From Patescibacteria group bacterium (lineage in GTDB: Bacteria > Patescibacteriota > Microgenomatia > Levybacterales > UBA12049), in NCBI GenBank assembly GCA_035260725.1, contig DATFUR010000013.1, forward strand, positions 1 through 38,267: a stretch of DNA of 38,267 nt. Direction: 5' to 3'. Position numbers and translations under genes: made by a program. Under the pieces are notes generated by a model. The model did no database searches. It was given only the letters and a program-made list of their open reading frames with translations, and was not told the origin of the DNA. Numbering within the stretch: position 1 is the first letter of the stretch; every line of letters starts with the position of its first letter. Of this stretch, positions 17,544-29,546 are shown piece after piece.

Positions 17544-19286
17544 TTAGGGGGCGATTTCCTGGTAGGTAAAATTGGCCTGTTTTAGAAAGTTTGGCGAATT
17601 AAGAATAAAGTCGGGCCGCTCCGCCGCGGAGAAAGCCGGGCATTGTACGTTTCCGGCGCAAAGGTCTCTTTGGTTTTGGAAACTTCCTCCGTTAAGACTG
17701 GCGTTTGTAATTACACTTCCGCCGACATTAAGCCTTAGATCGGTGCCCACAGAGCAGTCGTTTGTTCCCTGGACAATAAAGTTTTTATCAGCACTGTATA
17801 TTCCTTCTATGTCCGCGGTTGTAGAGGAATTAACCGCCTCGCCGACTGCTTTGTCTACTGTTATGTTGCCCGATGAGGAGAAAATCGCCGTAGATCCTAC
17901 GGGTACAAATATTTTTTCGGCGATTGTCAGGTCTCCATTTTTTACCAAGATTACAAAGTCTTGAGACGCTCCAAATGTGTATCCGCCGCCCACTAATTTG
18001 AGATTGCCGTTTGCAATATAAATTCCGTGGGGCAGAGAAGAAGACAAAGTGCAGCTGGAAATTCCGCCGGTGCAGTAAGAGGCAATATCCACGGGCTTGC
18101 CCTTGGAAAGAAGGAAACTGTATGAAGTTTTAATCTGCCCGCCGATTTTAGTCGGTGAATAAGTTTCGCCGTAGCTTATTCCACCTGCCACCCAGTCGTT
18201 TTGAGAAGCCCGGCCCTGTCCAAAATCCGCCGTTGTATTGCCTGTAAATACCAGTCCCGGTGTTCCACCTGACCCTGGCAAACTTGCGTAAGGCCCGCAA
18301 GAAGCGTTAGCCGGAATTTTGTTTATAAATCCGCTGTCTACTCTGCAGTCTGCGCCTATACATTGTATCCAAGGATTGGAATTGGTTATTCCAAAATTAA
18401 GATTTGCAATACTTCCTCCGCTACACGTCGCGGAATTTGATCCTCCTGTAGAGCATGTTCCTCCGACTGCAACCTGAAAAGACGGCGGAGGACCGTTTAG
18501 AGGATAAGTCAGTTGGTATCCGCTGGGCTTGTCTGTGTAGGAAATTGTGTAAGTCCCGGTATTGAGATTGCTGACCGTATAGGCCCCACCTGCGGAGCTG
18601 ACACTTCCTCCTGTTGAGGCAATTGTAATACTGCCGGTGTAATTTGTTTCGTTACTATCCTTTAGAGTATTTTTGTTGTTGTCCAAAAATACATTTCCGG
18701 AAATTGTGTAAGTGGGCGGGGGTGGCGGAGGTGGAGGCGTAGGGAGTGGAGTCGGAGTTGCTGTGGAGCAAGTTAAGTCGCAAGACTGGATAGTATCGTA
18801 TCTGGTGCCGGTTGAGTTACAAGTTTTGACTGTTTTGGTGTAGCCATTATTGCAAGAGGGGTCGGCATAACAAGTCGGATCTTGCCAAGAACATACTCCC
18901 GCAATAGTGCACGTTGCCTTATGACCTGTTTGTCCGCCAGCTGTTGTGCATCCACACGAATAACTCCAACTTCCGCCAATGCAGTTAGTATCGCAAACAG
19001 GAGCGGGAGTCGGAGTCGGGGTTGGTGGTGGTAACTGTGAACCATATTGGGATTGGTAAGTATATTCTTGGTAAGAATATTGGGATTGATAACTATATTG
19101 GGATTGGTACCCATACTCCTGGTAAGAATATTGACCTGGGTATTCACTTTCATAACCATATTGTGCACCATACTGACTAGAATACTCAGTTTCATAGCCA
19201 TAGTTTGCCGCTGAAGCTTTGTTAGCTAGATAAGAAGGAAAAAAAACCACAAACAAAATGAGGAGAATTTTTATAAGCTTACCCAC
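17544..19286 (-). CDS. secreted Tyr/Gln-rich, Cys-rich, PT-linker protein with Cna-B/SdrD-like and beta-helix-like regions
   Basis: GTG start followed by a signal-like KILLILFVVFFPSYLANKASA. Then a Y/Q-rich tract, PPPTPTPTPAP and TPTPLPTPPPPPPPPT linkers, a Cys-rich block, and ISGNVFLDNNKNTLKDSNETNYTG (SdrD B-like pattern). Confidence 0.8.
   Translation of the reverse strand: MGKLIKILLILFVVFFPSYLANKASAANYGYETEYSSQYGAQYGYESEYPGQYSYQEYGYQSQYSYQSQYSYQEYTYQSQYGSQLPPPTPTPTPAPVCDTNCIGGSWSYSCGCTTAGGQTGHKATCTIAGVCSWQDPTCYADPSCNNGYTKTVKTCNSTGTRYDTIQSCDLTCSTATPTPLPTPPPPPPPPTYTISGNVFLDNNKNTLKDSNETNYTGSITIASTGGSVSSAGGAYTVSNLNTGTYTISYTDKPSGYQLTYPLNGPPPSFQVAVGGTCSTGGSNSATCSGGSIANLNFGITNSNPWIQCIGADCRVDSGFINKIPANASCGPYASLPGSGGTPGLVFTGNTTADFGQGRASQNDWVAGGISYGETYSPTKIGGQIKTSYSFLLSKGKPVDIASYCTGGISSCTLSSSLPHGIYIANGNLKLVGGGYTFGASQDFVILVKNGDLTIAEKIFVPVGSTAIFSSSGNITVDKAVGEAVNSSTTADIEGIYSADKNFIVQGTNDCSVGTDLRLNVGGSVITNASLNGGSFQNQRDLCAGNVQCPAFSAAERPDFILNSPNFLKQANFTYQEIAP
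19035..19202 (-). repeat. Tyr/Gln-rich low-complexity tract (18 Tyr and 12 Gln in 56 aa)
   Basis: YGYETEYSSQYGAQYGYESEYPGQYSYQEYGYQSQYSYQSQYSYQEYTYQSQYGSQ. The plus strand carries three copies of ATATTGGGATTGRTA (about 19045, 19078 and 19095). Confidence 0.9.
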
Positions 19287-19747: not shown

Positions 19748-20953
19748 ATGGCTTTTAAAACAAAAATAACCCCCAAATGGGTATTTATAATTTTCTTTTT
19801 TCTAGAACTAATTTTTGTTACACAAATATTAAATCTTAATGGTCTTTCGAATCTTAAAACTGAGCCGCAAAAGGAGCAGTATAAAAAATCTGCGGAGGCT
19901 ATATTAAATGGCTGCAACAAGTTAAGTTTTAGGGAAACTTGTTACGCCCAACAATTCTACGACCTAACCAAAAAAACAAATATTCCTTATTCTATAGCAA
20001 CCCTTTCGGAGCTACAAAAACTGGATCCGAGACAGAGTACCGGGTGTCATTTTATTGCGCATAAAATAACAATTGCCGAAACCGAAAAGGATCCTTCTAA
20101 GTGGAAAGATATATTAAAAACCCTTCCAACATACGCTTGCACCGGAGGATATGTGCACGGAGTTATAGAAGTTCACACCGCGGTTGACCCAAATTTTAAA
20201 ATAAATGAAAATTCTGTCAACCTAATTTGTTCTCATGATCTTGAAGATAGAGGATTTGCAGAAACAAGCTGTTTTCACATAATGGGACACTTGATGATGG
20301 CACAAAACGATGGCGATATCAAAAAATCCGTAGAATCTTGTTTGCCGTATAAAAATGAAACCGCCAAATATGAGTGCCTTACTGGTACGTTTATGGAGAA
20401 TGAAACTCGGGAGAACCTTGCTTTGCATGAAATTGCGCCACATATACCATGGAATGACGAGACAACGCTTATTCAAGAGAATATATGTAGGCAGTATTCG
20501 GGAGAAGCAGCAAGGGCTTGTTGGCAGGAGATTTCACACATGTATTCAACCGTTTACAAAAACGAACCGTTAGATGTTTTTCAAGCATGCTCAAGAGCCC
20601 CGAATAAAGATTTTGCAACAGCCTGTTATTTGCACGCGATTGGAAATATGGTGGTCTCAAGTGATTTTAACGATGATAATTTTAATAAAGCCTGCGTTAT
20701 GTATTTAACAACTCCATCTCTTTACGGTCAGTGCACGAAACAGATTGTTGGAGCGTTAATTACCTCTTCCAGCCAAAATGTCAGCAGGGCAATAAATGCC
20801 TGTAATGATAGCTCTCAAGAAGTAAAAAGGGATTGTTTTTCCCATATCGTAAATACTCTCATAAACATCAAAAGCCCTTCAATAACGGTGCAAAATGCAT
20901 GTTTAAAGATTAAGGAAAAGTTTAAAGATATAGATTGTAAGGAAACTACTTAG
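19748..20953 (+). CDS. membrane-anchored or secreted Cys-pair repeat protein (18 Cys), unknown family
   Basis: ATG start and N-terminal helix WVFIIFFFLELIFV. At least 7 repeats of C-x(8-12)-C-[FYWL]-x-x-[IMV], for example CSHDLEDRGFAETSCFHIMGH, CRQYSGEAARACWQEISH and CSRAPNKDFATACYLHAIGN. Confidence 0.75.
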   Translation: MAFKTKITPKWVFIIFFFLELIFVTQILNLNGLSNLKTEPQKEQYKKSAEAILNGCNKLSFRETCYAQQFYDLTKKTNIPYSIATLSELQKLDPRQSTGCHFIAHKITIAETEKDPSKWKDILKTLPTYACTGGYVHGVIEVHTAVDPNFKINENSVNLICSHDLEDRGFAETSCFHIMGHLMMAQNDGDIKKSVESCLPYKNETAKYECLTGTFMENETRENLALHEIAPHIPWNDETTLIQENICRQYSGEAARACWQEISHMYSTVYKNEPLDVFQACSRAPNKDFATACYLHAIGNMVVSSDFNDDNFNKACVMYLTTPSLYGQCTKQIVGALITSSSQNVSRAINACNDSSQEVKRDCFSHIVNTLINIKSPSITVQNACLKIKEKFKDIDCKETT

Positions 20954-21419
20954 AAGGTACAGGTGTTGGCGAAGGAGCCGAAACTAAAAATATTGCCTTT
21001 AATCCCCACGATCTTTTGTTAAGATCATAAACCATTCCCATTGTTGCAAGAGATCCAATTTTAACTACATCAATTGTGGAGGGGGTTTGAGTTCCGCTCT
21101 TAACTTCAAAAACCTTTGTATCCTTTGTTGCTAAAAATTGCGGGATATCTCTATCTGATATATCTAAAGTTATCGCGGTATTTTCTCCTACAGGAGTTAT
21201 ATTTGTGACTTTGCCTGTAAAGTTATAGGAAAAAAAGATAGAAGAAATTCCTTTGTGTTTGGGATCTATGGGCAAGGCAATAGAGTTTTGTAATGTCTGT
21301 ATTTGCAAAGGTGCATTGTAGGTTGTTTTTGTAGAACTTTTATTATTAACAAAGAAAAAGAGGATTGCATTGAGAAGAACAAATATAATTACAAGAATTA
21401 AAAGTCGTTTAGAATTCAT
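20946..21419 (-). CDS. membrane-anchored hypothetical protein
   Basis: ATG start, N-terminal helix LLILVIIFVLLNAILFFFV and C-terminal SAPSPTPVPSK. Promoter with the -10 box 6 nt from the ATG. Confidence 0.7.
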   Translation of the reverse strand: MNSKRLLILVIIFVLLNAILFFFVNNKSSTKTTYNAPLQIQTLQNSIALPIDPKHKGISSIFFSYNFTGKVTNITPVGENTAITLDISDRDIPQFLATKDTKVFEVKSGTQTPSTIDVVKIGSLATMGMVYDLNKRSWGLKAIFLVSAPSPTPVPSK

Positions 21420-21461: not shown

Positions 21462-22346
21462 TTAGGGACTGGGAACAGTGCATGCATTTGGACCGGAACA
21501 CGTTACTGTTTGGGTTCCTGGAATGCAGATTGTTCCGGAACAATTTAGACCTCTGCAAAAATTTGGGTCGTTGTAGCACTGACTCCTATCATTGTACCAG
21601 CAGTAAAGACTCCCTGAATACTGGAAACAGCTTTTTACAGAGCAAAAGTTACATGTAGTGGAATTGGCGCCGCTGCATGATTCGGGGGTATTGGGAGATC
21701 CTTGGGTACAAGGTCCTCCCTCCCATCCTCCTGTAGTCGGACAAACCCCCGGTGGAGGAGTCGTGCCAGGAGGCGTCGGTACACAGGCTCCATTGCTACA
21801 AGTTTGATCCGAAGGACAACTTCTTACGCTACCACCATCATAACACCCGTTGGTTTGTAGATCGCAAGTGTTATATGTCGTTGAACTCACGCACCAAGAA
21901 CTTCCAGGAGTACATTGATTTGTGCAGGTGCTTGGGTTTGGGGTTGGGGTAGGAGTCGGAGTGGGGCATGTAGATGTGCACAGTACAGAATCTGGAATAC
22001 TGTAATTGTCACATCCTAAAGTGCTGTAATTACAGACGGAATAATTATATATGCTGCAGCTACTTCCATTCCCGCAAGAACTATCTGTACACTGCCAAGT
22101 TTTTGTTGTTGTTGAAGTACATGCATAGCATTGAGCCTGTGATTGTCCAGGATTTGTGCAAGATTTATTAGGGCAGTCTCTTCCTAGTGCAGTATATTTA
22201 GTGCATCCCGCTGGAGGATTAAAATCGGCAGCGCACGCATAATCTGTTGTAGTAACATTAGTAGAGCAAGTGAAAGCTAAAGCATTAATTTTTACAGAAA
22301 ATAAAAATAAGAAAAAGAACAACAAGAATATTAATTTTATATACAT
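21462..22346 (-). CDS. secreted cysteine-rich protein (35 Cys in 294 aa) with PT linker
   Basis: Signal-like IKLIFLLFFFLFLFSVKINALA, CPTPTPTPTPNPS, and a CTNQCTPGSSWCVSSTTYNTCDLQTNGCYDGGSVRSCPSDQTCSNGACV module. TTGACA-N17-TACGAT promoter upstream. Confidence 0.8.
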   Translation of the reverse strand: MYIKLIFLLFFFLFLFSVKINALAFTCSTNVTTTDYACAADFNPPAGCTKYTALGRDCPNKSCTNPGQSQAQCYACTSTTTKTWQCTDSSCGNGSSCSIYNYSVCNYSTLGCDNYSIPDSVLCTSTCPTPTPTPTPNPSTCTNQCTPGSSWCVSSTTYNTCDLQTNGCYDGGSVRSCPSDQTCSNGACVPTPPGTTPPPGVCPTTGGWEGGPCTQGSPNTPESCSGANSTTCNFCSVKSCFQYSGSLYCWYNDRSQCYNDPNFCRGLNCSGTICIPGTQTVTCSGPNACTVPSP

Positions 22347-22394: not shown

Positions 22395-23198
22395 TTATTG
22401 TGCGGGGGCTAAGTTAGCAAAATTTGCGATAAAAACAAAAGTTTGATCACTCCTATCATTGTTCGGCTTTTCTAGGTTTTTTGACAGATTTTGGTAGGAG
22501 TGCCAATTCATATCTTGATAGTTCTTTTCATTTTGATTTATGCTTGCATTAAAGCTTATGGTTTTCCCTACTTTTAGACTGTTCTCAACCGTGTTAATTC
22601 CCTGAGAGATTCCATGTCCAGGCCCATTCGGATAAACAAGTATATTATTAGTTACTAGAATCCATGCAGTGAAGCCTTTATATATATATTCTTTTGTTTT
22701 GGTTCCATCAAAGTTGATTGTAGATCTCCCAGTATCTTCTCTGTCTAGCTTTTCCCCGGGCATTGCAACTGCTACCCACATGGTTTTGTCTTTTTCGCCT
22801 TTTGTAACATCAACTATAGTTAGATCTTGAAAAGATAAGGAAAATCCATAAGGCTGTTCTGCTGTGATTGTTCCTCCAAATGGAACTATTGAAACAAAAC
22901 CTTGTTTTTTTGTAAGTTCTGCCAGAGGAACCTTGTTAATTGCTTTTTCGGAAGCAGGTTTGTCTGGTTCTACTACCGGAGGTTTTGGGAGTTCTCCTGA
23001 GGGTGCAGTGGCACTAGGGGGAGCAAGGAAATGATTGAGTTGATCTTTTCCCCAGAGTGCGCCGCCCACTCCTGCAGCCAGAATACCGGCAGCGATTACT
23101 CCGTTAACAATCCTGTTTGCCCTTCGCGACGGAGTAGGGATTTTTGGTTTTTCAACGGGAAGTTTTGACGCTTCATTATGTTCTGCAGTCACATCCAT
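22395..23198 (-). CDS. membrane-anchored hypothetical protein
   Basis: ATG start. A charged N-terminus is followed by the helix IVNGVIAAGILAAGVGGALW, a Pro-rich spacer and a globular C-terminal part. No family recognised. Confidence 0.7.
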   Translation of the reverse strand: MDVTAEHNEASKLPVEKPKIPTPSRRANRIVNGVIAAGILAAGVGGALWGKDQLNHFLAPPSATAPSGELPKPPVVEPDKPASEKAINKVPLAELTKKQGFVSIVPFGGTITAEQPYGFSLSFQDLTIVDVTKGEKDKTMWVAVAMPGEKLDREDTGRSTINFDGTKTKEYIYKGFTAWILVTNNILVYPNGPGHGISQGINTVENSLKVGKTISFNASINQNEKNYQDMNWHSYQNLSKNLEKPNNDRSDQTFVFIANFANLAPAQ

Positions 23199-23771: not shown

Positions 23772-24323
23772 CTATCTTGCCGAGGGGGAAGAGTAGGCAG
23801 TAGACAGATCAAATTTTGTACCCAATGTTGACTTTAAGACGCTCTGGGCTATTCCTTCCGCACTTACAAGCGACTTGGCTGCAAAATCAATGGATGTTAT
23901 TCCGGCGGTTCTTAGTTTTCTAAAAGACAAAGTCGCGATAACTCCTTGTCCCGAAACCCCTTTTTGTCCAAGACCCACTCCAAGCGCGTAAGAAATTCTT
24001 CCGTTTGCAGTGTCGATCTTTTTAAGCAACTCATCCGGAGTCTTAAAGAAAGTTCCGGGTCTAACATCTACACTTGTTATGTCTTGAGGGTTATAGGAAA
24101 GCTCCAGTTGTACTGCTGTTGCTTTGTTACCCCTGGTGTCTATTACAACGTTAGATACAAAAGCGCTGCCAGAGGCACTAGGTGTTGTTAGAGACAAAGT
24201 TGTCTGTGCAACCGAAACAGGCACTGGCGTAGGTGTTTCTTTGGGTGTGAGGTTTAAAGACAAAGCCAGAAGCCCCGCAACCGAAACTATCAAAACTAAA
24301 ATTAAAATAAAAGTTCTACTCAT
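23772..24323 (-). CDS. membrane-anchored cohesin-domain-like protein (minimal anchoring scaffoldin candidate)
   Basis: N-terminal helix FILILVLIVSVAGLLALS. Then FVSNVVIDTRGNKATAVQLELSYNPQDITSVDVRPGTFF...ANGRISYALGVGLGQKGVSGQGVIATLSFRKL...TSIDF, which follows the cohesin pattern (v.idt.g..v.a.ql.l.Ydp..l....v..G.f ... G.i.fa......gvsG.G.la.i.F). Confidence 0.6.
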   Translation of the reverse strand: MSRTFILILVLIVSVAGLLALSLNLTPKETPTPVPVSVAQTTLSLTTPSASGSAFVSNVVIDTRGNKATAVQLELSYNPQDITSVDVRPGTFFKTPDELLKKIDTANGRISYALGVGLGQKGVSGQGVIATLSFRKLRTAGITSIDFAAKSLVSAEGIAQSVLKSTLGTKFDLSTAYSSPSAR

Positions 24324-24329
24324 CTTATT

Positions 24330-24358
24330 ATTATAACTATATTAATCTCCGTTTTGAA
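24330..24358 (-). promoter_or_regulatory. sigma70-like promoter for the cohesin-like gene, leaderless configuration
   Basis: Minus strand: TTCAAA(24358-24353)-N17-TATAAT(24335-24330)-N6-ATG(24323). The -35 box lies inside the 3' end of the dockerin-like gene. Confidence 0.5.
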
Positions 24359-25901
24359 TAACAGAGATTTCCCTTACAAATAAATTATAATCAAATTGGT
24401 CAATGACCCCATTGTCGTCGAGGTCCGCAGGAGCGCAGGCGCCGGACGCAGGTTTGAATAGACAACTTGAGAAGAAGTTGTAGTCCAAGGGCGAGAGTTT
24501 ATTGTCGTGGTCTATATCTCCTGTAGCTAAATTCACAGAAGAAATGTTATTTGGTAATCCAATACCCAGATTAACGAGGCCGGGGACAGTTTTTTTCAAA
24601 TATCCATCAGATTTTATCTTAATATTGTAATTACCACCTGTTATTATAGAAGTTGGTATATTGTCGACTCCTTTAAATTTACCCGATGCTTGATCATAGG
24701 TAAGATTAACCGAGGTAAATAATACTCTCGTATTGCTAGAATCAAAAACCTCATAGTCTATTTTTTTCGTAGGATGCATAGGATTCTTGTTGGGTCCTAT
24801 TGCTCCAGTTGCATTTGTGCAGCTGGCTTGAGTGCATTTTAGATCAACTGTCGTGCCAATTCCGTCAAGACCAATTGTAAAAGTAAGTTGGATTTTGGTT
24901 GCTGTAGGAGCTGCCGGAGTATTTGGACAAGTAAATGAAGGCGCGCTATTCACAGCGCTGTTAAACCAGCAGAGAGGATTGGTGGCAACACTGTTGAATT
25001 TTTCGCAGCTTACATAGTAGCATTGATTCGAACCTGCTACGGCTGCATATTGTTTTTCTCCCTCCGTTGGGCACAAACCGCCCCACGCAGATCCTCCTTG
25101 AGTTGTGGGCATTACTCCCGCTGCGGCGGGACAGACTGTAGCTATGGAACAAGGATCGGGTTTTCCAGGTTCGGCATAGCACCATCCGGAATTATTCTTG
25201 CCTTCGTCAATTTTGGTTGGAGTCTTATCGAAGTATGAGTCATACCAGCATAAATTTGTTTGGCACTGTTTGTATGAAACTCCGTCTACAACTTGTCCGG
25301 CTTTTGCTGTTGCCGCGGAGCATGTTCTTTTGCAAGGGCCGTTTATAACAGCACCCCTTTGCTGGTCTGCAGCGGTGCAGGTAGAAACAAATCCCTTGGA
25401 GGCATCGCAACTCACGGCTGGGGCTGTGGGGGAAACTGTGGGGGTGGGAGTTGAAGTGCAAAGGATTCCGGAACTGTTATAACATCCTGCATCAGTACAT
25501 TGTTTATCGTCCATAGGCCCAACGCATCGAGTCGGTTGAAAGGTGCATCCTGCGGGACAGTTTCCCCCCGTTGCCGGACCAGGAGATGTTGGAGGAGTGG
25601 CTGTGGGCGGTGCAGTTGGAGTGGTACAAGTTTGCTGTGTGCAGCTGTATGCTGTGGCGCCTGCCGGACAGCCGGGAGAAGTTCCCGCCGGACTGCAGGT
25701 TACGCCGCCGGGGCCTGTCACATCGGAGCAGAAAACTCCTAGATTTATGGTTTTGCAAGTATCTGCGCGTTGGCGGAGTTCCTGTTGTTTTTGGGCGATA
25801 TTTACCGTTAGGGGAATTGCAAGAACGACAATAAGAACCATCAAAACTCCAACGGTACGGGAATTGCTTGGATTGGTAATAAAATCAAAAATGCGACGCA
25901 T
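24342..25901 (-). CDS. secreted Cys-rich protein with C-terminal dockerin-like module
   Basis: N-terminal helix VGVLMVLIVVLAIPLTV, a long Cys-rich and PT-rich region, an Ig-like beta region, then a duplicated Ca-binding-loop pattern: GDIDHDNKLSPLDYNFF and ADLDDNGVIDQFDYNLF. Confidence 0.75.
   Translation of the reverse strand: MRRIFDFITNPSNSRTVGVLMVLIVVLAIPLTVNIAQKQQELRQRADTCKTINLGVFCSDVTGPGGVTCSPAGTSPGCPAGATAYSCTQQTCTTPTAPPTATPPTSPGPATGGNCPAGCTFQPTRCVGPMDDKQCTDAGCYNSSGILCTSTPTPTVSPTAPAVSCDASKGFVSTCTAADQQRGAVINGPCKRTCSAATAKAGQVVDGVSYKQCQTNLCWYDSYFDKTPTKIDEGKNNSGWCYAEPGKPDPCSIATVCPAAAGVMPTTQGGSAWGGLCPTEGEKQYAAVAGSNQCYYVSCEKFNSVATNPLCWFNSAVNSAPSFTCPNTPAAPTATKIQLTFTIGLDGIGTTVDLKCTQASCTNATGAIGPNKNPMHPTKKIDYEVFDSSNTRVLFTSVNLTYDQASGKFKGVDNIPTSIITGGNYNIKIKSDGYLKKTVPGLVNLGIGLPNNISSVNLATGDIDHDNKLSPLDYNFFSSCLFKPASGACAPADLDDNGVIDQFDYNLFVREISVIQNGD
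24345..24521 (-). other. dockerin type-I-like module (two EF-hand-like repeats)
   Basis: This is the last 59 aa: GDIDHDNKLSPLDYNFFSSCLFKPASGACAPADLDDNGVIDQFDYNLFVREISVIQNGD. Both halves fit D-x-[DN]-x-[DN]-x-x-[VIL]-x-x-x-D-x-x-x-[hydrophobic]. Confidence 0.65.
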
Positions 25902-25943: not shown

Positions 25944-25972
25944 AGAGTATTGAAATTAGGATATGTTGTCAA
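25944..25972 (-). promoter_or_regulatory. candidate promoter for the dockerin-bearing protein gene
   Basis: Minus strand: TTGACA(25972-25967)-N17-TACTCT(25949-25944), 42 nt before ATG 25901. It interdigitates with the divergent plus-strand promoter. Confidence 0.4.
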
Positions 25973-25987: not shown

Positions 25988-26362
25988 ATGAATAATCCAA
26001 TAAAAAAATCAAACGTGTCGATTAGGGATATTCATGAAAGGATTTATAAGTTTGTAATTCGAGTTTTAAATTTAATTAAATATATTCCTAAAACTTCCGA
26101 AAATATAGTTTTGATTGGACAAATAACGAGATCGGCAACTTCGATGGGAGCAAATGATCAAGAGGCAGATGGAGCAATTAATAGAAAAGATTTCGTTGCG
26201 AAATACTCAATTGTTAGAAAAGAGGGTAAGGAAATTAATTATTGGTTAAAAATAATTAGTGATACAAATCCAAAGCTTAAATCTAGAATGCAGGATTTAA
26301 TAGATGAAAGCGAGGAGCTTATAAAAATTGTCAGCACGATTATTTTTAAGACAAAAAGGTAA
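25988..26362 (+). CDS. four-helix-bundle protein (23S rRNA intervening-sequence protein family)
   Basis: IHERIYKFVIRVLNLIKYIPKT...IGQITRSATSMGANDQEADGAINRKDFVAKYSIVRKEGKEINYWLKII fits the family pattern (l..Ql.RsatSi.aNiaEg.....kdf...l.ia.gE..Et.ywl.l). Confidence 0.75.
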   Translation: MNNPIKKSNVSIRDIHERIYKFVIRVLNLIKYIPKTSENIVLIGQITRSATSMGANDQEADGAINRKDFVAKYSIVRKEGKEINYWLKIISDTNPKLKSRMQDLIDESEELIKIVSTIIFKTKR

Positions 26363-26387: not shown

Positions 26388-26416
26388 TTGTCTTATTCTC
26401 AAAATTCTTGTATAAT
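26388..26416 (+). promoter_or_regulatory. sigma70-like promoter for the rpsB-tsf operon
   Basis: TTGTCT(26388-26393)-N17-TATAAT(26411-26416), 73 nt before ATG 26490. Confidence 0.55.
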
Positions 26417-26432
26417 TTTGAGCTATCACTCA

Positions 26433-26482
26433 CATCCGATGATGTCTCTGACTACGGTTTTCGGATGGCGGTTAAAGAGACA
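26433..26482 (+). promoter_or_regulatory. structured rpsB 5' leader (two interleaved 7-bp helices, pseudoknot topology)
   Basis: CATCCGA(26433-26439) pairs with TCGGATG(26461-26467). TGTCTCT(26443-26449) pairs with AGAGACA(26476-26482). The order is A-B-A'-B', and B' ends 7 nt before the start codon. Confidence 0.45.
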
Positions 26483-26489
26483 CAAAATT

Positions 26490-27344
26490 ATGCGCGAAAT
26501 TACCCTTGAAGAACTTCTTACAGCCGGGTGCCATTTTGGTCATCAGGTAACTCGTGCCAATCCAAAGGCCCGAGATTTTGTTTTTGAGGCTAGAGACAAT
26601 ATTCAAATTATAGATTTGGCCAAAACAAAAGAAGGTTTGGAGGAAGCGGGGCAATTTATAAAAGACCTTTCCTCAAGGGGCGGAACGCTTCTGGTTGTCG
26701 GAACAAAAAGACAAGCCCAGGAAATTGTAAAAACCCAAATGGAAAGAGTTGACCAGTCCCGAGGACAGGTTTTGTTTGTTTACAACAGGTGGATTGGAGG
26801 AATCCTCACAAACTTTTCCGAGGTTTCTAAAAATGTCAAAAAACTTACCGATTTGGAAAAGAAACTGCAGGACGAATCAGAAAAATCAGGGTTCACGAAA
26901 AAAGAAATAGGGCTTTGGGAAAAGGAAAAACAAAGATTGGAAATGCTCTACGGCGGAATTGCAAAAATGACCAAGGTTCCGGATGCACTATACATAATAG
27001 ATTCTCATCTGGAGGATTTGGCGGTAAGAGAAGCCAGAAACATGGGAGTTGCGACCGTTGCAATTGTAGACACAAACGCAGATCCGCACGTTATTGACTA
27101 TCCAATTCCTGCAAACGACGACGCAGCAGGCTCAATCGAGCTAATAACTGCATACTTAATAGACGCTTGGAACGAAGGAGCCAAGGCAACACCTGCGAAA
27201 AGTAAATCGGAAAAAGAGGAAGAGAAGCCGGAAGTTAAAGAAGAGAAGAAATCCTCCTCTAAAGCTTCGGAGGACAAAGTAAAAAAAGTTAAAGTTCAAA
27301 AGACAAAAACCGCTAAGAAGACAAAAGCAAAGAGCAAAAAGTAA
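26490..27344 (+). CDS. rpsB: 30S ribosomal protein S2 with Lys-rich C-terminal extension
   Basis: MREITLEELLTAGCHFGHQVTRANPKA matches the conserved S2 N-terminus, and VPDALYIIDSHLEDLAVREARNMGVATVAIVDTNADP is also present. ATG 26490 is preferred. The track's upstream extension covers the predicted promoter and leader. Confidence 0.9.
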   Translation: MREITLEELLTAGCHFGHQVTRANPKARDFVFEARDNIQIIDLAKTKEGLEEAGQFIKDLSSRGGTLLVVGTKRQAQEIVKTQMERVDQSRGQVLFVYNRWIGGILTNFSEVSKNVKKLTDLEKKLQDESEKSGFTKKEIGLWEKEKQRLEMLYGGIAKMTKVPDALYIIDSHLEDLAVREARNMGVATVAIVDTNADPHVIDYPIPANDDAAGSIELITAYLIDAWNEGAKATPAKSKSEKEEEKPEVKEEKKSSSKASEDKVKKVKVQKTKTAKKTKAKSKK

Positions 27345-27358
27345 TTCTAAATTGAACT

Positions 27359-27811
27359 ATGGCATACGATATTAAAGTTTTAAAAAAGTTAAGAGACGAA
27401 ACCCAAGCATCGGTTTCCGACATAAAAACTGCTTTGGAAGAATCAAAGGGCGACTTGGAAAAGGCCAGAGAATATCTTCAGAAAAGAGGATTGGAAAAAG
27501 CAGGAAAAAAAGAAGGGCGGGAAACTAATGCCGGAATCGTGGAAACATACATTCATCATAACGGGGCAACAGGATCTACTGTGGTTTTGACTTGTGAAAC
27601 TGATTTTGTGGGGAGAACAGACGAGTTTAAAAGTCTGGCGCACGAAATCGCAATGCAAATAAATGCACTTAATCCAAAAGACACAAAAGCACTTCTTGCA
27701 AGTCCTTACATAAGAGACGAGAAGAAAACAATCGAGGATCTTATAAAAGAACACATCGCAAAACTTGGAGAAAATATTCTAATTAAAGACTTCAAAAGAT
27801 TCGAAATCTAA
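27359..27811 (+). CDS. tsf: elongation factor Ts, very short form (150 aa)
   Basis: N-terminal UBA-like LKKLRDETQASVSDIKTALEESKGDLEKAREYLQKRG, then CETDFVGRTDEFKSLAHEIAMQI. Conserved position after rpsB. Confidence 0.85.
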   Translation: MAYDIKVLKKLRDETQASVSDIKTALEESKGDLEKAREYLQKRGLEKAGKKEGRETNAGIVETYIHHNGATGSTVVLTCETDFVGRTDEFKSLAHEIAMQINALNPKDTKALLASPYIRDEKKTIEDLIKEHIAKLGENILIKDFKRFEI

Positions 27812-27823
27812 TTGGGGCACTCC

Positions 27824-27840
27824 GATCGCTTCGCGAGTTC
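27824..27840. repeat. partial copy of the GC-rich intergenic motif family
   Basis: GATCGCTTCGCGAGTTC in the tsf-frr spacer. It resembles GATCGCTTCCCGCGC (31633-31647) and TCGCTTCGTCAGTTC (34861-34875). Confidence 0.4.
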
Positions 27841-27882
27841 ATACTCTTTTAAATAGTTCGTGGATATGATAATGTGGTTTTT

Positions 27883-28437
27883 ATGAACTTAGACACGGCC
27901 CGTTTGCAAATGGGCAAAATTATAGAGATTTTAAAAAGCGATCTCGGAACTGTTAGGACAGGCAGAGCCACCCCGTCTCTTGTAGAAAATATTGTTATTA
28001 ACGCATATGGGGGAACTCAAAAATTGCGCGTAATGGAGTTGGCAACAATCGGAACTTCCGATTCACAAACAATAATCATAACCCCTTTTGACGCATCGAT
28101 TATAGAAGAAATCCAAAAAGGAATTATGGAGACTAACGTGGGTCTTAATCCTGTTGTAGACGGCCAATTAATTAGAATTTCAATCCCACTTTTATCCGGA
28201 GAAAGAAGGGCAGAATTGGTTGCTTTGGTTAACCAAAAGTTAGAGGGAGGAAGAATCCAAGTGCGCCAAGTGCGCCACGAGGCAATGGACACAGTTAAAA
28301 AGCAATTCAACAACAAAGAAATCGGAGAAGATGATGTTTTAAGGTTGGAAAAAGAAATTCAAAATTTAACAGACGAAACAATAAAAACGATCGACGAGTT
28401 GGGAAAGAAAAAAGAAGAAGAATTAATGCAATTATGA
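27883..28437 (+). CDS. frr: ribosome recycling factor
   Basis: LKSDLGTVRTGRATPSLVENIVINAYG...PLLSGERRAELV...VRHEAMD. ATG 27883 is preferred over GTG 27874. Confidence 0.9.
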   Translation: MNLDTARLQMGKIIEILKSDLGTVRTGRATPSLVENIVINAYGGTQKLRVMELATIGTSDSQTIIITPFDASIIEEIQKGIMETNVGLNPVVDGQLIRISIPLLSGERRAELVALVNQKLEGGRIQVRQVRHEAMDTVKKQFNNKEIGEDDVLRLEKEIQNLTDETIKTIDELGKKKEEELMQL

Positions 28438-29546
28438 TAGTAACTGTTTTGGTTTTCTTACTGATATTAACAATTTTGGTTTTAATCCATGAAGCGGGCC
28501 ATTTTTTTGTAGCAAAGTTTTTTAATATAAAAGTCGAAGAATTTGGTGTTGGTTTTCCTCCGCGCGCTTGGGGAAAAAAAGTGGGCGAGACACTTTATTC
28601 CATTAACTGGCTTCCGATTGGAGGTTTCGTAAGACTTTATGGGGAGGACGAAGCGGGGTCCGGCAGAATCTCGATTGGCAAAAACAAAAAAATTACAAAT
28701 ACAAACCGCGCTTTTTTTGCAAAACCCTGGTGGCAGAGATTTTTGGTTGGGATAGCAGGAGTAGTCATGAATTTTTTGCTTGCTGTTTTGATATTTTCTT
28801 TTATGTTCGCTTTTGTCGGAGTCGCAATTCCGGGTCACAAAGTTATTGTTGGTCAGGTCGCCAAAGGTTCTCCGTCCGAATTGGCAGGTTTGAAACCGGG
28901 GGACACAATTGAATATGTAGGCAGTGTAAAAATTACCGATACACAACAACTGATTGCGGAAACAAAAAAACATTTGGGTCAGGAGATAGTTTTAAAATTA
29001 AATTCGAATGGCAAGGTTAGGGAGGTAAGAATAACTCCGAGGACTAATTATCCAAAAGGAGAAGGGCCAATAGGGGTTGCAATATCGCAAAATGCAGAAA
29101 TTAAAAAATACAGTTGGTACGAGGCGCCTGTTGCCGGAACAAAAGAGGCAATAAAGGCCTCCTGGCTTATTATCTCTGCTTTTGGAACTGTAATTTCTCA
29201 ACTATTTACCCAGGGCGCTATTCCTAAGGATATTGCGGGACCAATTGGAATCGCCCAATTAACGGGGCAAGTAGTGCAAGTCGGACCTTTCGCGGTTTTA
29301 TATTTTATTTCTATTTTGTCTTTAAATCTTGCTATTCTAAATGTTCTTCCAATTCCGGCTTTGGACGGAGGAAGATTATTTTTTATTTTAATCGAGGCAG
29401 TGACCCGAAAAAAAGTTCATCCAAAATTCGAAAGCTATGCTCATGCAATTGGAATGGCCCTTCTTTTGGCCCTCATTGCTTTAGTTACTTTGCACGATAT
29501 TTCAAGAATAATTTCTGGTCAATCATTAATTCCGGGTTCGCGCTGA
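28434..29546 (+). CDS. rseP: RIP (site-2) zinc metalloprotease RseP/M50 family with PDZ domain
   Basis: HEAGHFFVAK (HExxH), a PDZ-like GSPSELAGLKPGDTI, and NVLPIPALDGGRL. ATGA overlap with frr. Confidence 0.85.
   Translation: MIVTVLVFLLILTILVLIHEAGHFFVAKFFNIKVEEFGVGFPPRAWGKKVGETLYSINWLPIGGFVRLYGEDEAGSGRISIGKNKKITNTNRAFFAKPWWQRFLVGIAGVVMNFLLAVLIFSFMFAFVGVAIPGHKVIVGQVAKGSPSELAGLKPGDTIEYVGSVKITDTQQLIAETKKHLGQEIVLKLNSNGKVREVRITPRTNYPKGEGPIGVAISQNAEIKKYSWYEAPVAGTKEAIKASWLIISAFGTVISQLFTQGAIPKDIAGPIGIAQLTGQVVQVGPFAVLYFISILSLNLAILNVLPIPALDGGRLFFILIEAVTRKKVHPKFESYAHAIGMALLLALIALVTLHDISRIISGQSLIPGSR

What the first reader, a model, noticed from the sequence alone, without database searches (positions are those of the whole stretch)
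23772..25901. Adjacent cohesin-like and dockerin-like genes: a self-contained two-gene surface-display module
The 519-aa Cys-rich secreted protein ends in a duplicated Ca-loop segment typical of type-I dockerins: GDIDHDNKLSPLDYNFF ... ADLDDNGVIDQFDYNLF.

The next gene starts 18 nt downstream. It encodes a 183-aa protein made only of an N-terminal membrane helix, a short spacer and one cohesin-like beta-sandwich: VVIDTRGNKATAVQLELSYNPQDI...GVSGQGVIATLSF.

Cohesin-dockerin pairs are the Lego connectors of cellulosomes. Here no glycoside hydrolase is attached. The simplest reading is a minimal anchoring scaffoldin that tethers one Cys-rich cargo protein to the cell surface. Other dockerin-bearing proteins elsewhere in the genome could share the anchor.

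The cohesin gene also has its own TTCAAA-N17-TATAAT-N6-ATG promoter embedded in the dockerin coding region. Anchor and cargo could therefore be expressed at different ratios.
Basis: partly seen in the sequence, partly recalled or inferred. Interest (0 to 1): 0.7.

Follow-up and report, generated by a model that had tools for sequence, protein, structure and literature searches.

The report
Membrane cohesin with dockerin-tailed partner protein
Two neighbouring genes of an uncultured ultra-small (Patescibacteria/CPR) bacterium encode a membrane-anchored cohesin and a cysteine-rich exported protein ending in a dockerin, the plug-and-socket pair known from cellulosomes. No enzyme is attached here. 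The gene pair recurs in dozens of related species, so it probably holds adhesin-like proteins on the cell envelope, but binding has never been tested.

Summary
Both genes lie on the minus strand: cargo 24342-25901 (519 aa) and cohesin 23772-24323 (183 aa), separated by 18 nt.

- **Cohesin.** It passes Pfam's threshold. Its AlphaFold model (pLDDT 93.6) matches only cohesins in the PDB.
- **Dockerin.** The window protein alone scores below Pfam's threshold. A profile of 27 homologous C-termini hits solved dockerins (E 1.8e-9). The Ca-loop aspartates at loop positions 1 and 12 are invariant or nearly so.
- **Refinement.** The dockerin is fused without a linker to a conserved beta-sandwich. The only significant fold matches are the X-module-dockerin dyads that anchor the Clostridium thermocellum cellulosome.
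- **Family size.** This 188-aa unit ends at least 1125 protein clusters with variable heads.
- **Conservation.** In 34 of 53 assessable species genomes, mostly Levybacteria, one to three dockerin-ending genes sit directly upstream of the small cohesin gene.
- **Promoter.** The proposed internal promoter fits a leaderless promoter pattern that is significantly tied to gene starts in this window.

Binding, Ca dependence and membrane retention remain inferred. This is a new variant of the known non-cellulosomal cohesin-dockerin theme, and NCBI already names the 183-aa protein as cohesin-domain-containing. Interest is moderate.

The parts
24342..25901 (-). Cargo gene, 519 aa: N-terminal leader, Cys-rich mosaic region, X-like beta-sandwich, dockerin
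   Evidence: ORF. There are 47 homologs, many with precomputed Dockerin_1. NCBI calls it a hypothetical protein and models only 390 aa. The full 519-aa N-terminus is conserved in homologs.
25764..25901 (-). Cargo residues 1-46: conserved N-terminal leader (n-region, hydrophobic helix ending IPLTV, polar IAQKQQELRQRA)
   Evidence: The same leader occurs in most homologs. A46 is nearly invariant. AF2 models one helix over residues 14-48. The motif occurs on 15 dockerin ORFs and 7 other ORFs in related loci. Export and possible cleavage are inferred.
24897..25763 (-). Cargo residues 47-335: Cys-rich region (26 Cys) with P/T-rich linkers, made of small modules whose order differs between homologs
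   Evidence: Cys positions. Module shuffling was seen by eye. No Pfam or NCBIfam family matches. AF2 confidence is mostly below 55. Function is unknown.
24522..24896 (-). Cargo residues 336-460: X-module-like beta-sandwich fused directly to the dockerin
   Evidence: pLDDT is mostly 93-98, with a loop dip around residues 351-370. Together with the dockerin it matches the X-Doc dyads 5g5d_B, 4fl4, 5m0y_B, 5k39_B and 2b59_B, the only hits with E<=1e-3. It is conserved as one unit with the dockerin in 1125 cluster representatives at E<=1e-10.
24345..24521 (-). Cargo residues 461-519: dockerin with two Ca-loop/helix segments (462-473, 493-504), a linker with conserved C480 and C489, and a conserved C-terminal Q-x-G-D
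   Evidence: Alignment A1 shows invariant G461, D473, D493 and D504. The family profile hits PDB dockerins at 1.8e-9. 23 of 27 members hit Dockerin_1. AF2 places helices at 471-480, 487-492 and 502-514.
24330..24358 (-). Promoter-like site TTCAAA-N17-TATAAT, ending 6 nt before the cohesin ATG (leaderless-type)
   Evidence: It scores 10 of 12 in the consensus scan. The same TAnnnT-N6-ATG layout occurs at 7 of 27 ATG gene starts against 13 of 815 other ATGs in the window, p=9e-7. Promoter-like sites are enriched upstream of cohesin orthologs, 21 of 41 against 4.8 expected. Not tested experimentally.
23772..24323 (-). Cohesin gene, 183 aa (NCBI HKC14544.1, 'cohesin domain-containing protein')
24255..24320 (-). 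Cohesin protein residues 2-23: N-terminal hydrophobic helix, a putative signal-anchor
   Evidence: AF2 helix over residues 2-23. The family shows basic residues, then a 19-aa hydrophobic stretch. A cleavable signal peptide cannot be excluded.
24204..24254 (-). Cohesin protein residues 24-40: P/T-rich stalk (NLTPKETPTPVPVSVAQ)
   Evidence: Across 105 family members the stalk is 17-34 aa, median 24, and 45% P/T/S.
23808..24203 (-). Cohesin protein residues 41-172: cohesin beta-sandwich
   Evidence: Pfam Cohesin at 37.8 bits. The family profile hits only cohesins in the PDB. AF2 pLDDT is 93.6. The top 50 Foldseek hits are all cohesins, with TM up to 0.76.
25944..25972 (-). Possible promoter of the cargo gene: TTGACA-N17-TACTCT, about 42 nt before the ATG
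   Evidence: Read directly from the sequence. The -10 element matches only 3 of 6 positions and was not reported by the scan. Weak.

Best explanation
This is an enzyme-free cohesin-dockerin anchoring pair of a Patescibacteria (CPR) bacterium related to Levybacteria.

**Proposed mechanism**
- The 183-aa protein inserts in the cytoplasmic membrane by its N-terminal helix. It holds one cohesin domain on a 17-residue P/T-rich stalk outside the membrane.
- The 519-aa protein is exported through its N-terminal leader.
- Its C-terminal unit, a beta-sandwich fused rigidly to a two-loop Ca-binding dockerin, plugs into the cohesin. The arrangement resembles an X-module-dockerin dyad.
- This tethers the variable, disulfide-rich head to the cell envelope.
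- The head is probably a binding or adhesion part, not an enzyme.

**Family behaviour**
The anchor is constant and the heads are exchangeable. Related species place one to three different dockerin-ending genes (Cys-rich, vWA/SdrD-like, Ig-like) in front of the same small cohesin gene. Each gene probably has its own promoter, and the cohesin transcript is probably leaderless.

**Shown here**
- Domain identities and folds.
- Conservation of the Ca-ligand positions.
- Conserved gene adjacency.
- Single-chain fusions in relatives.
- Promoter-pattern statistics.

**Inferred**
- Physical binding and its Ca dependence.
- Membrane retention of the cohesin.
- Processing of the cargo leader.
- The adhesin role.
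For: **Cohesin**
- Pfam above threshold.
- The 67-sequence profile hits only solved cohesins.
- AF2 pLDDT 93.6, with helix 2-23, linker, and sandwich 41-172.
- All top 50 Foldseek PDB hits are cohesins, including the non-cellulosomal Archaeoglobus one, 2xdh.

**Dockerin**
- The family profile hits dockerins 2yik, 4fl4, 2y3n, 2b59, 1ohz and 2ccl, with E from 1.8e-9 to 2.4e-5.
- 23 of 27 members hit Dockerin_1.
- Loop positions D473, D493 and D504 are invariant, and D462 is nearly so.
- The C-terminal 185 aa are modelled at pLDDT mostly 93-98, with one loop dip at about residues 351-370.
- The only six significant fold hits are type II X-Doc dyads.

**Linkage**
- A dockerin-ending ORF lies immediately upstream on the same strand in 34 of 53 assessable GTDB species loci.
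- The same holds in L001, L005 and L007.
- Ten cohesin/cargo homolog pairs have matching contig lengths, suggesting they share a contig.
- A cohesin-family domain and the X-Doc unit occur in one chain in P0136 (hhalign probability 96%, E 3e-9) and in L035:2778-4235.

**Anchor anatomy**
The helix-stalk-domain layout is conserved in 105 relatives.

**Heads**
Cargo heads in other species are vWA, SdrD_B, SpaA and Ig-like domains, with no catalytic GH.

**Family size**
The X-Doc unit sits at the C-terminus in nearly all of the best 150 of 1125 cluster representatives; the proteins are 155-1440 aa long.

**Promoter**
Against: - No binding data exist, and no complex model could be run with these tools.
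- The window's own dockerin scores below Pfam's gathering cut-off.
- The cargo has its own conserved hydrophobic N-terminal leader. If it is not cleaved, tethering by the cohesin is not needed for retention.
- The cohesin's N-terminal helix could be a cleaved signal peptide. The protein would then be soluble and could not anchor anything.
- In 16 of 53 species loci no dockerin gene lies within 6 kb of the cohesin gene, as also in L004 and L006.
- A 17-residue stalk is short for reaching beyond a wall or S-layer, so 'surface display' may be overstated.
- The head region has no recognisable domain and a low-confidence model, so the adhesin role is a guess by analogy with the vWA/SdrD heads of relatives.
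Confidence: 0.6

Rival explanations
1. The modules build a non-covalent surface polymer or layer instead of displaying one cargo. The membrane cohesin would be the base. Proteins that carry both a cohesin and an X-Doc would link head-to-tail, and X-Doc-only proteins such as this cargo would cap or decorate the chain.
For: Relatives encode a leader, a cohesin-family domain, a linker and X-Doc in one chain. Examples are P0136 and P0141, L035:2778-4235, and my HMM hits in L040, L041, L042, L048, L059 and L069. Tandem small cohesin genes occur in L021, L023, L026 and L041.
Against: The 38-kb window holds no protein with both modules, and only one cohesin and one dockerin. The rest of the genome could not be searched. 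Most species loci show the simple layout of a dockerin gene followed by the small cohesin gene.
Confidence: 0.15
2. The two proteins do not form an anchoring complex. The dockerin-like segment would be only a Ca-dependent stability or other-ligand module. The small cohesin-like protein would be a soluble or membrane partner with another role, such as a chaperone or cap for exported X-Doc proteins, or an unrelated beta-sandwich protein. Adjacency would reflect shared regulation or envelope function.
For: - The window dockerin is below the Pfam cut-off.
- About a third of species have the cohesin gene alone, in a conserved position beside rpsB-tsf-frr.
- The cargo has its own membrane-type leader.
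- Each gene seems to have its own promoter.
Against: - Every solved relative of both modules is a cohesin or a dockerin taken from binding pairs.
- Adjacency with strict order and strand is conserved in 34 of 53 species.
- Fusion proteins exist.
- The stalk-plus-helix anatomy of the cohesin protein is conserved.
Confidence: 0.15
3. A remnant or minimal cellulosome for polysaccharide breakdown.
For: The modules are those of cellulosomes. One related cargo (L056) has a GH79 C-terminal beta-domain hit.
Against: - Neither protein has a glycoside hydrolase or CBM.
- The anchor carries a single cohesin.
- Related cargos carry vWA, SdrD or Ig-like heads.
- The published definition (a scaffoldin with two or more cohesins plus a dockerin-fused GH, PMC13487519) is not met.
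Confidence: 0.03

Closest known systems
Type II cohesin / X-module-dockerin anchoring of the Clostridium thermocellum cellulosome (CipA X-Doc bound to SdbA, OlpB or Orf2p cohesins; PDB 2b59, 5g5d, 5k39, 5m0y, 4fl4)
   Same: A beta-sandwich module fused to a two-loop dockerin forms the C-terminal unit. These dyads are the only significant fold matches of the cargo. The role of that pair is attachment to the cell, not enzyme recruitment (review PMC12484212). The partner is a cohesin on a cell-bound protein.
   Different: - The anchor here is a single N-terminal membrane helix, with no SLH domain or sortase signal (sequence).
- The cohesin model shows no helix inside the domain and is compact at about 132 aa. 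From my own knowledge, type II cohesins carry an extra helix and flaps.
- The X-Doc sits on non-catalytic Cys-rich or vWA heads, not on a multi-cohesin scaffoldin.
- Sequence identity to the solved dyads is only 15-18%.
Non-cellulosomal cohesin- and dockerin-like modules (Peer, Smith, Bayer, Lamed, Borovok 2009, FEMS Microbiol Lett 291:1, cited as ref 32 in PMC13487519), e.g. the Archaeoglobus fulgidus cohesin 2xdh and the Clostridium perfringens cohesin-like modules 2jh2, 2vo8 and 2w1n
   Same: The modules occur outside cellulolytic organisms on predominantly non-catalytic parent proteins. 2xdh, 2jh2, 2vo8 and 2w1n are among the fold matches of the window cohesin.
   Different: I could not read that survey. 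Full-text searches found no paper describing a cohesin-dockerin pair in Patescibacteria/CPR. Here the pair forms a conserved ordered gene cassette, with a membrane-helix anchor and an X-Doc-type unit, across dozens of CPR species.
Minimal cellulosome-like system of Cellulosilyticum lentocellum (PMC13487519)
   Same: One protein with a single cohesin plus one dockerin-bearing partner: a two-component system.
   Different: In that system the cohesin protein carries a CBM and the dockerin is fused to an active GH5 cellulase. Here there is no CBM and no enzyme, and the cohesin protein carries a membrane helix.
Essential dockerin-domain envelope protein SEML1_0315 of the saccharibacterium Southlakia epibionticum (Wang et al. 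2023, PMC10633639)
   Same: It is a dockerin-domain, envelope-associated protein in a Patescibacteria member. The authors suggest it targets host-cell-associated glycans, for adhesion or for degradation.
   Different: It comes from a different class (Saccharibacteria). That paper mentions no cohesin partner. I did not compare the sequences.

Membership tests
Cohesin domain (Pfam PF00963) | Sequence match to the family profile above the curated threshold | tested here: met
   37.8 bits against a gathering score of 24.1, E 2.7e-9, residues 48-153. A profile of 67 relatives hits only cohesin chains in the PDB.
Cohesin domain (Pfam PF00963) | Beta-sandwich (jelly-roll) fold of about 140 residues | tested here: met
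   The AF2 model has pLDDT 93.6 and strands over residues 41-172. The top 50 Foldseek PDB matches are all cohesins, with E from 1.6e-7 and target TM up to 0.76.
Cohesin domain (Pfam PF00963) | Binds a dockerin | not testable with these tools
   No complex prediction or experiment was available. Only indirect support exists, from conserved adjacency and fusions.
Dockerin (Pfam PF00404) | Sequence match to the family profile above the curated threshold | tested here: inconclusive
   The window protein scores 14 bits (17.4 for the C-terminus alone) against a 22.9 cut-off, although the match covers profile positions 2-55 of 57. 23 of 27 homologous C-termini hit at E<=0.01, best 4.6e-10. The family profile hits solved dockerins at 1.8e-9.
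Dockerin (Pfam PF00404) | Tandem duplication of a Ca-binding loop (Asp/Asn at loop positions 1, 3, 5, 9, 12) followed by a helix | tested here: met
   Loops DIDHDNKLSPLD and DLDDNGVIDQFD. D473, D493 and D504 are invariant, and D462, D496 and G498 are at least 90% conserved. AF2 places helices at 471-480 and 502-514 after the loops.
Dockerin (Pfam PF00404) | Ca2+-dependent folding and binding | not testable with these tools
   Needs ITC, CD or pull-down with and without EDTA.
Type II X-module-dockerin / type II cohesin pair | Ig-like X module directly N-terminal to the dockerin, conserved as one unit | tested here: met
   The six significant fold hits are all X-Doc dyads, aligned over 185-198 columns. 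The 188-aa unit is matched nearly end to end in the best 150 of 1125 cluster representatives. No linker is present: strands run to residue 462 and loop 1 starts at 462.
Type II X-module-dockerin / type II cohesin pair | Partner cohesin has the type II additions: an alpha-helix within the sandwich and beta-flaps, in a domain of about 165-170 aa (feature list from my own knowledge of published type II cohesin structures) | tested here: not met
   DSSP of the AF2 model shows no helix between residues 41 and 172, and the domain is about 132 aa. Fold matches mix type I and type II cohesins with similar scores.
Cellulosome in the strict sense | [quoted passage not shown] | tested here: not met
   There is one cohesin, one dockerin, and no GH or CBM in either protein.
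Anchoring scaffoldins (SLH- or sortase-attached) | SLH repeats or a C-terminal LPXTG sorting signal | tested here: not met
   No SLH hit. The C-terminus is ...LSTAYSSPSAR, without LPXTG. Attachment would instead be by the N-terminal helix.

The most novel reading that the evidence does not exclude
Levybacteria-like CPR bacteria may use a lineage-wide, enzyme-free cohesin/X-Doc kit as their envelope-assembly and host- or substrate-attachment apparatus.
- One small membrane cohesin serves as a universal socket.
- More than a thousand diverged X-Doc-tailed proteins carry exchangeable heads (Cys-rich modules, vWA, Ig-like) that act as plugs.
- Cohesin-plus-X-Doc adaptor proteins extend the assembly.
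- A lineage-specific N-terminal leader (IPLTV...QKQQELRQRA) marks many of the clients for export and processing.
Probability: 0.3. Interest if true: 0.65.

Novelty: new variant of a known kind. Interest (0 to 1): 0.5.

Why it matters
CPR/Patescibacteria are thought to live attached to other cells, yet very little is known about how they build their envelope or hold adhesins. A conserved socket-and-plug cassette would give a concrete, testable handle on that question. It consists of a small membrane cohesin and a large family of X-Doc-tailed proteins with exchangeable heads. The two modules are small, can be made recombinantly, and their binding is easy to assay.

The finding would also extend cohesin-dockerin biology in three ways:
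- to a membrane-helix anchor,
- to an X-Doc unit on non-scaffoldin proteins,
- to a major uncultured lineage.

It could also supply new orthogonal cohesin-dockerin pairs for protein engineering. It does not overturn anything. Non-cellulosomal cohesin-dockerin modules have been known since 2009, and the cohesin gene is already named as such in GenBank.

Tried and rejected
- **NCBIfam.** A scan of the six genes in the minus-strand run found nothing relevant.
- **Neighbouring genes.** The four downstream minus-strand genes (168, 267, 294 and 157 aa) were tested as possible members of the module. They are not conserved next to the cassette in 69 related loci, apart from weak N-terminal hits for the 168-aa protein, so I left them out.
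- **Cys-rich head.** The structure model has low confidence over residues 50-330, so no fold assignment was possible.
- **Profile search with the X-Doc alignment.** The word-indexed database returned only 7 proteins. The exhaustive search with the single sequence was the informative one.
- **Literature.** Four full-text searches found no description of a cohesin-dockerin pair in CPR. The 2009 survey of non-cellulosomal modules is not in the held library.
- **Complex prediction.** It was not possible.
- **Co-evolution and mirror-tree tests.** I considered testing cohesin against the adjacent dockerin and dropped the idea. Adjacent genes share species history, so a correlation would not discriminate.
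- **Cellulosome reading.** Rejected: no GH or CBM, and only one cohesin.
- **EF-hand or FG-GAP reading of the C-terminus.** Rejected. Dockerins outrank EF-hand proteins by at least four orders of magnitude in E-value, and up to seven for the best hit. Only 5 of 27 members touch FG-GAP_3.
Full report
**Observation**

The two ORFs are real and lie on the minus strand. The cargo is 24342-25901 (519 aa) and the second gene is 23772-24323 (183 aa), with an 18-nt gap. All quoted peptides are present. The cargo has 30 cysteines, 26 of them between residues 47 and 335. The string TTCAAA-N17-TATAAT-N6-ATG is at 24358-24330. Its first hexamer lies in the last cargo codons and its second lies in the gap.

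The surrounding genes are rpsB, a 150-aa tsf, frr, an M50 protease and SHMT. GenBank labels the organism 'Patescibacteria group bacterium'. This places the window in an uncultured CPR bacterium.

**The cohesin**

- Pfam Cohesin is matched above the curated threshold: 37.8 against 24.1 bits, E 2.7e-9.
- The protein belongs to a family of at least 124 clusters of small proteins (136-236 aa among the 120 listed). Almost all carry precomputed Cohesin hits. GenBank already names the window protein 'cohesin domain-containing protein'.
- A 67-sequence profile finds only cohesin chains in the PDB.
- The AlphaFold model built on that alignment has mean pLDDT 93.6. It shows a helix at 2-23, an unstructured P/T-rich stretch at 24-40, and a beta-sandwich at 41-172.
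- The 50 best Foldseek matches in the PDB are all cohesins. They include type I and type II modules, the non-cellulosomal Archaeoglobus cohesin 2xdh and the Clostridium perfringens modules.
- Across 105 relatives the anatomy is constant: about two basic residues, a 19-residue hydrophobic stretch, a 17-34-residue linker that is 45% Pro/Thr/Ser, then the domain.

A conserved P/T-rich stalk after the helix argues for an uncleaved signal-anchor. No topology predictor was available, so cleavage is not excluded.

**The dockerin**

On its own the window protein scores below Pfam's cut-off: 14 bits, or 17.4 for the last 75 residues, against 22.9. The match nevertheless spans nearly the whole profile. 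The family view settles the question.

- 23 of 27 homologous C-termini hit Dockerin_1 at E<=0.01, best 4.6e-10.
- Their profile hits solved dockerins first: 2yik at 1.8e-9, then 4fl4, 2y3n, 2b59, 1ohz and 2ccl. EF-hand proteins appear only at E>0.04.
- The two 12-residue loops are DIDHDNKLSPLD (462-473) and DLDDNGVIDQFD (493-504). Aspartates at loop positions 1 and 12 are invariant or nearly so across the family.
- Two features are family-specific: a conserved Cys pair (C480, C489) in the inter-segment linker, and a conserved Q-x-G-D at the very C-terminus.

**A refinement: the dockerin is part of an X-Doc-like unit**

- The AlphaFold model of the whole cargo is poor for the Cys-rich part. It is very confident (pLDDT mostly 93-98, with one loop dip at about residues 351-370) for residues 335-519.
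- That region is a beta-sandwich (336-462) running straight into the first Ca loop, followed by three helices.
- Only six PDB fold matches reach E<=1e-3. All are X-module-plus-type-II-dockerin dyads of Clostridium thermocellum (5g5d_B, 4fl4_I/C, 5m0y_B, 5k39_B, 2b59_B). They align over 185-198 columns with target TM 0.55-0.64.
- An exhaustive search with the last 188 residues finds 1821 cluster representatives at E<=1e-3 and 1125 at E<=1e-10.
- In the best 150, the match covers about 145-188 residues, usually around 180. It sits at the extreme C-terminus of proteins 155-1440 aa long in all but a few cases.

So the conserved unit is sandwich plus dockerin, and the N-terminal heads vary.

The cohesin does not look type II. 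From my own knowledge, type II cohesins carry an extra helix and flaps. The model here shows no helix inside the domain, and the domain is compact. I therefore describe the pair as X-Doc-like in architecture and do not file it as type II.

**Are the two genes a functional pair?**

- The cohesin pattern retrieved 62 loci from GTDB species-representative genomes. Most are titled Levybacteria/Levyibacteriota or Patescibacteria.
- I scanned these loci with HMMs built from the two families. Of 53 assessable loci, 34 have a dockerin-ending ORF immediately upstream on the same strand. My strict rule gave 31, and L021, L026 and L028 are evident in the listing. Three have one immediately downstream, and 16 have none within 6 kb.
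- Seven species have two or three tandem dockerin genes before the one cohesin gene.
- Independent look-ups show the same order in L001, L005 and L007.
- Ten cohesin/cargo homolog pairs have matching contig lengths, which suggests each pair lies on one contig.
- Relatives also fuse a cohesin-family domain and the X-Doc unit in one chain. P0136 aligns to the cohesin profile with hhalign probability 96%, E 3e-9. L035:2778-4235 has Pfam Cohesin and Dockerin_1 hits, both weak.
- Where the cohesin gene stands alone, it keeps its place divergent from rpsB-tsf-frr. This suggests a core anchor gene next to which client genes are inserted.
- The four genes downstream in the window are not conserved with the cassette.

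**What the clients are**

The window cargo's head has no Pfam or NCBIfam family. It appears to be a mosaic of small disulfide-rich modules separated by P/T linkers, and the order of these modules differs between homologs (by eye).

In other species the gene in the same slot carries one of the following:
- vWA plus SdrD_B/SpaA-type domains,
- Ig-like domains (NPCBM_assoc, FixG_C, Big_1),
- in one case, a GH79 C-terminal beta-domain.

None of the ten cohesin-adjacent dockerin proteins I scanned has a catalytic glycoside hydrolase. These are the domain types of adhesins and surface structures, not of cellulosomal enzymes. The adhesin role for the window protein is an inference by analogy.

**Export signals**

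Many X-Doc proteins, including the window cargo, start with a conserved leader. It has a long n-region, a hydrophobic helix ending IPLTV, and a polar Q-rich stretch ending R-Q-R-A. A46 is nearly invariant, and sequence conservation stops right after it.

Other X-Doc proteins next to cohesin genes have N-termini that, by eye, look like ordinary cleavable signal peptides ending in an A-x-A-type site. If those are cleaved, the proteins would be released unless something holds them. That is the best argument that the cohesin acts as a retention socket for the family. For the window cargo, retention by the cohesin matters only if the leader is cleaved. This is unknown.

**Promoter**

- The site before the cohesin gene is one of the three best minus-strand matches in the region (10 of 12). 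All three sit just upstream of gene starts, and two of them end exactly 6 nt before the ATG.
- Window-wide, TAnnnT ends exactly 6 nt before the ATG at 7 of 27 ATG gene starts, against 13 of 815 other ATGs (p=9e-7). Adding a -35-like hexamer gives 4 of 27 against 4 of 815 (p=5e-5).
- Across species, 21 of 41 cohesin orthologs have a promoter-like site at 9 of 12 or better within 60 nt upstream. Shuffles give 4.8, with a maximum of 9 in 300.

A separate, probably leaderless transcript for the cohesin gene is therefore credible. The cargo has a perfect TTGACA 65 nt upstream, but the -10 element is weak.

**Comparison with what is known**

- Cohesin-dockerin pairs outside cellulosomes, mostly on non-catalytic proteins, were surveyed in 2009 (Peer et al., as cited in PMC13487519).
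- Type II X-Doc/cohesin pairs anchor cellulosomes to SLH- or sortase-bound proteins (PMC12484212).
- A one-cohesin, one-dockerin 'minimal' system with a GH5 has been described (PMC13487519).
- A dockerin-domain envelope protein is essential in a cultivated saccharibacterium (PMC10633639).
- I found no paper describing a cohesin-dockerin pair in CPR.

The present system works like an anchoring cohesin-dockerin pair. It differs in three respects: the anchor is a membrane helix, the client is an X-Doc on non-scaffoldin and non-enzymatic heads, and the lineage is CPR. It fails the definition of a cellulosome, and the type II cohesin hallmarks are not met.

**Verdict**

Binding and topology remain untested. 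This is a new variant of a known kind, and interest is moderate at 0.5.

Noticed in passing
window gene starts 7302(+), 10940(+), 20946-21419(-), 22395-23198(-), 23736(-), 24323(-), 33252(+): Many genes have a -10-like TAnnnT ending exactly 6 nt before the ATG: 7 of 27 ATG starts against 13 of 815 other ATGs, p=9e-7. It often comes with TTGACA at N17. Leaderless transcripts therefore seem common in this CPR genome.
   Followed up: partly
window 25764-25901 (-), cargo residues 1-46; also ORFs in L001, L007-L009, L013, L014, L018, L042, L056, L060: A conserved N-terminal leader (hydrophobic helix ending IPLTV, then xIAQKQQELRQRA with a nearly invariant final Ala) occurs on many X-Doc proteins and on some non-dockerin ORFs. 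No Pfam or NCBIfam model matches it. It may be a lineage-specific export or processing signal.
   Followed up: partly
window 24342-25901 (-): GenBank models this gene as only 390 aa (HKC14545.1, VKC89_01095), which implies a start at the internal Met130. The 519-aa ORF has an N-terminus conserved in homologs, so the deposited model is probably truncated.
   Followed up: partly
window 193-7260 (+): A 2355-aa ORF, possibly longer upstream, carries a Peptidase_S74 domain (intramolecular chaperone of endosialidase/tail-fibre type) at residues 1913-1966 and a C-terminal bacterial SH3 domain. It is a giant surface or fibre-like protein.
   Followed up: no
window 25988-26362 (+); L001 3967-4278, L006 6760-6981, L056 3397-3801, L015 3137-3595: A gene for a 23S rRNA-intervening-sequence protein family member (PF05635) sits beside the cassette here and recurs near it in several related loci.
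   Followed up: no
window 26388-29546 (+) versus 23772-25901 (-); L004, L006, L007, L001: The small cohesin gene keeps a conserved position divergent from rpsB-tsf-frr-rseP in several relatives, even where no dockerin gene is adjacent.
   Followed up: partly
window 21462-22346 (-) and 17544-19286 (-): By eye, the neighbouring secreted proteins of 294 aa and 580 aa carry Cys-rich modules resembling modules in cargo homologs, for example WEGGPC...CFQYSG..YCWYN and SYSCGCTT..GHKATC. BLAST found no significant hits for the 294-aa protein in related loci. The C-terminal 390 aa of the 580-aa protein recur in large proteins of L012, L041, L043 and L049.
   Followed up: partly
L008, L011, L013, L016, L022, L025-L027, L029, L030, L043, L045, L046 and others: Many third-party MAG records that carry this Levybacteria-type cassette are titled 'uncultured Gammaproteobacteria bacterium'. 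A few soil MAGs are titled Acidiferrales, Methylomirabilota and similar. These are probably placeholder or mis-binned labels.
   Followed up: no
L064, L066, L067 (Anaerolineae MAGs): ORFs of about 1600 aa with two hits to this cohesin family's HMM lie downstream of a weakly dockerin-like ORF. This is a different, scaffoldin-like use of related cohesins outside CPR.
   Followed up: no
window 24324-24344 (-): The cargo and cohesin ORFs are in the same reading frame, separated only by TAA plus six codons. This is probably coincidence, because natural fusions in relatives have the opposite domain order.
   Followed up: no
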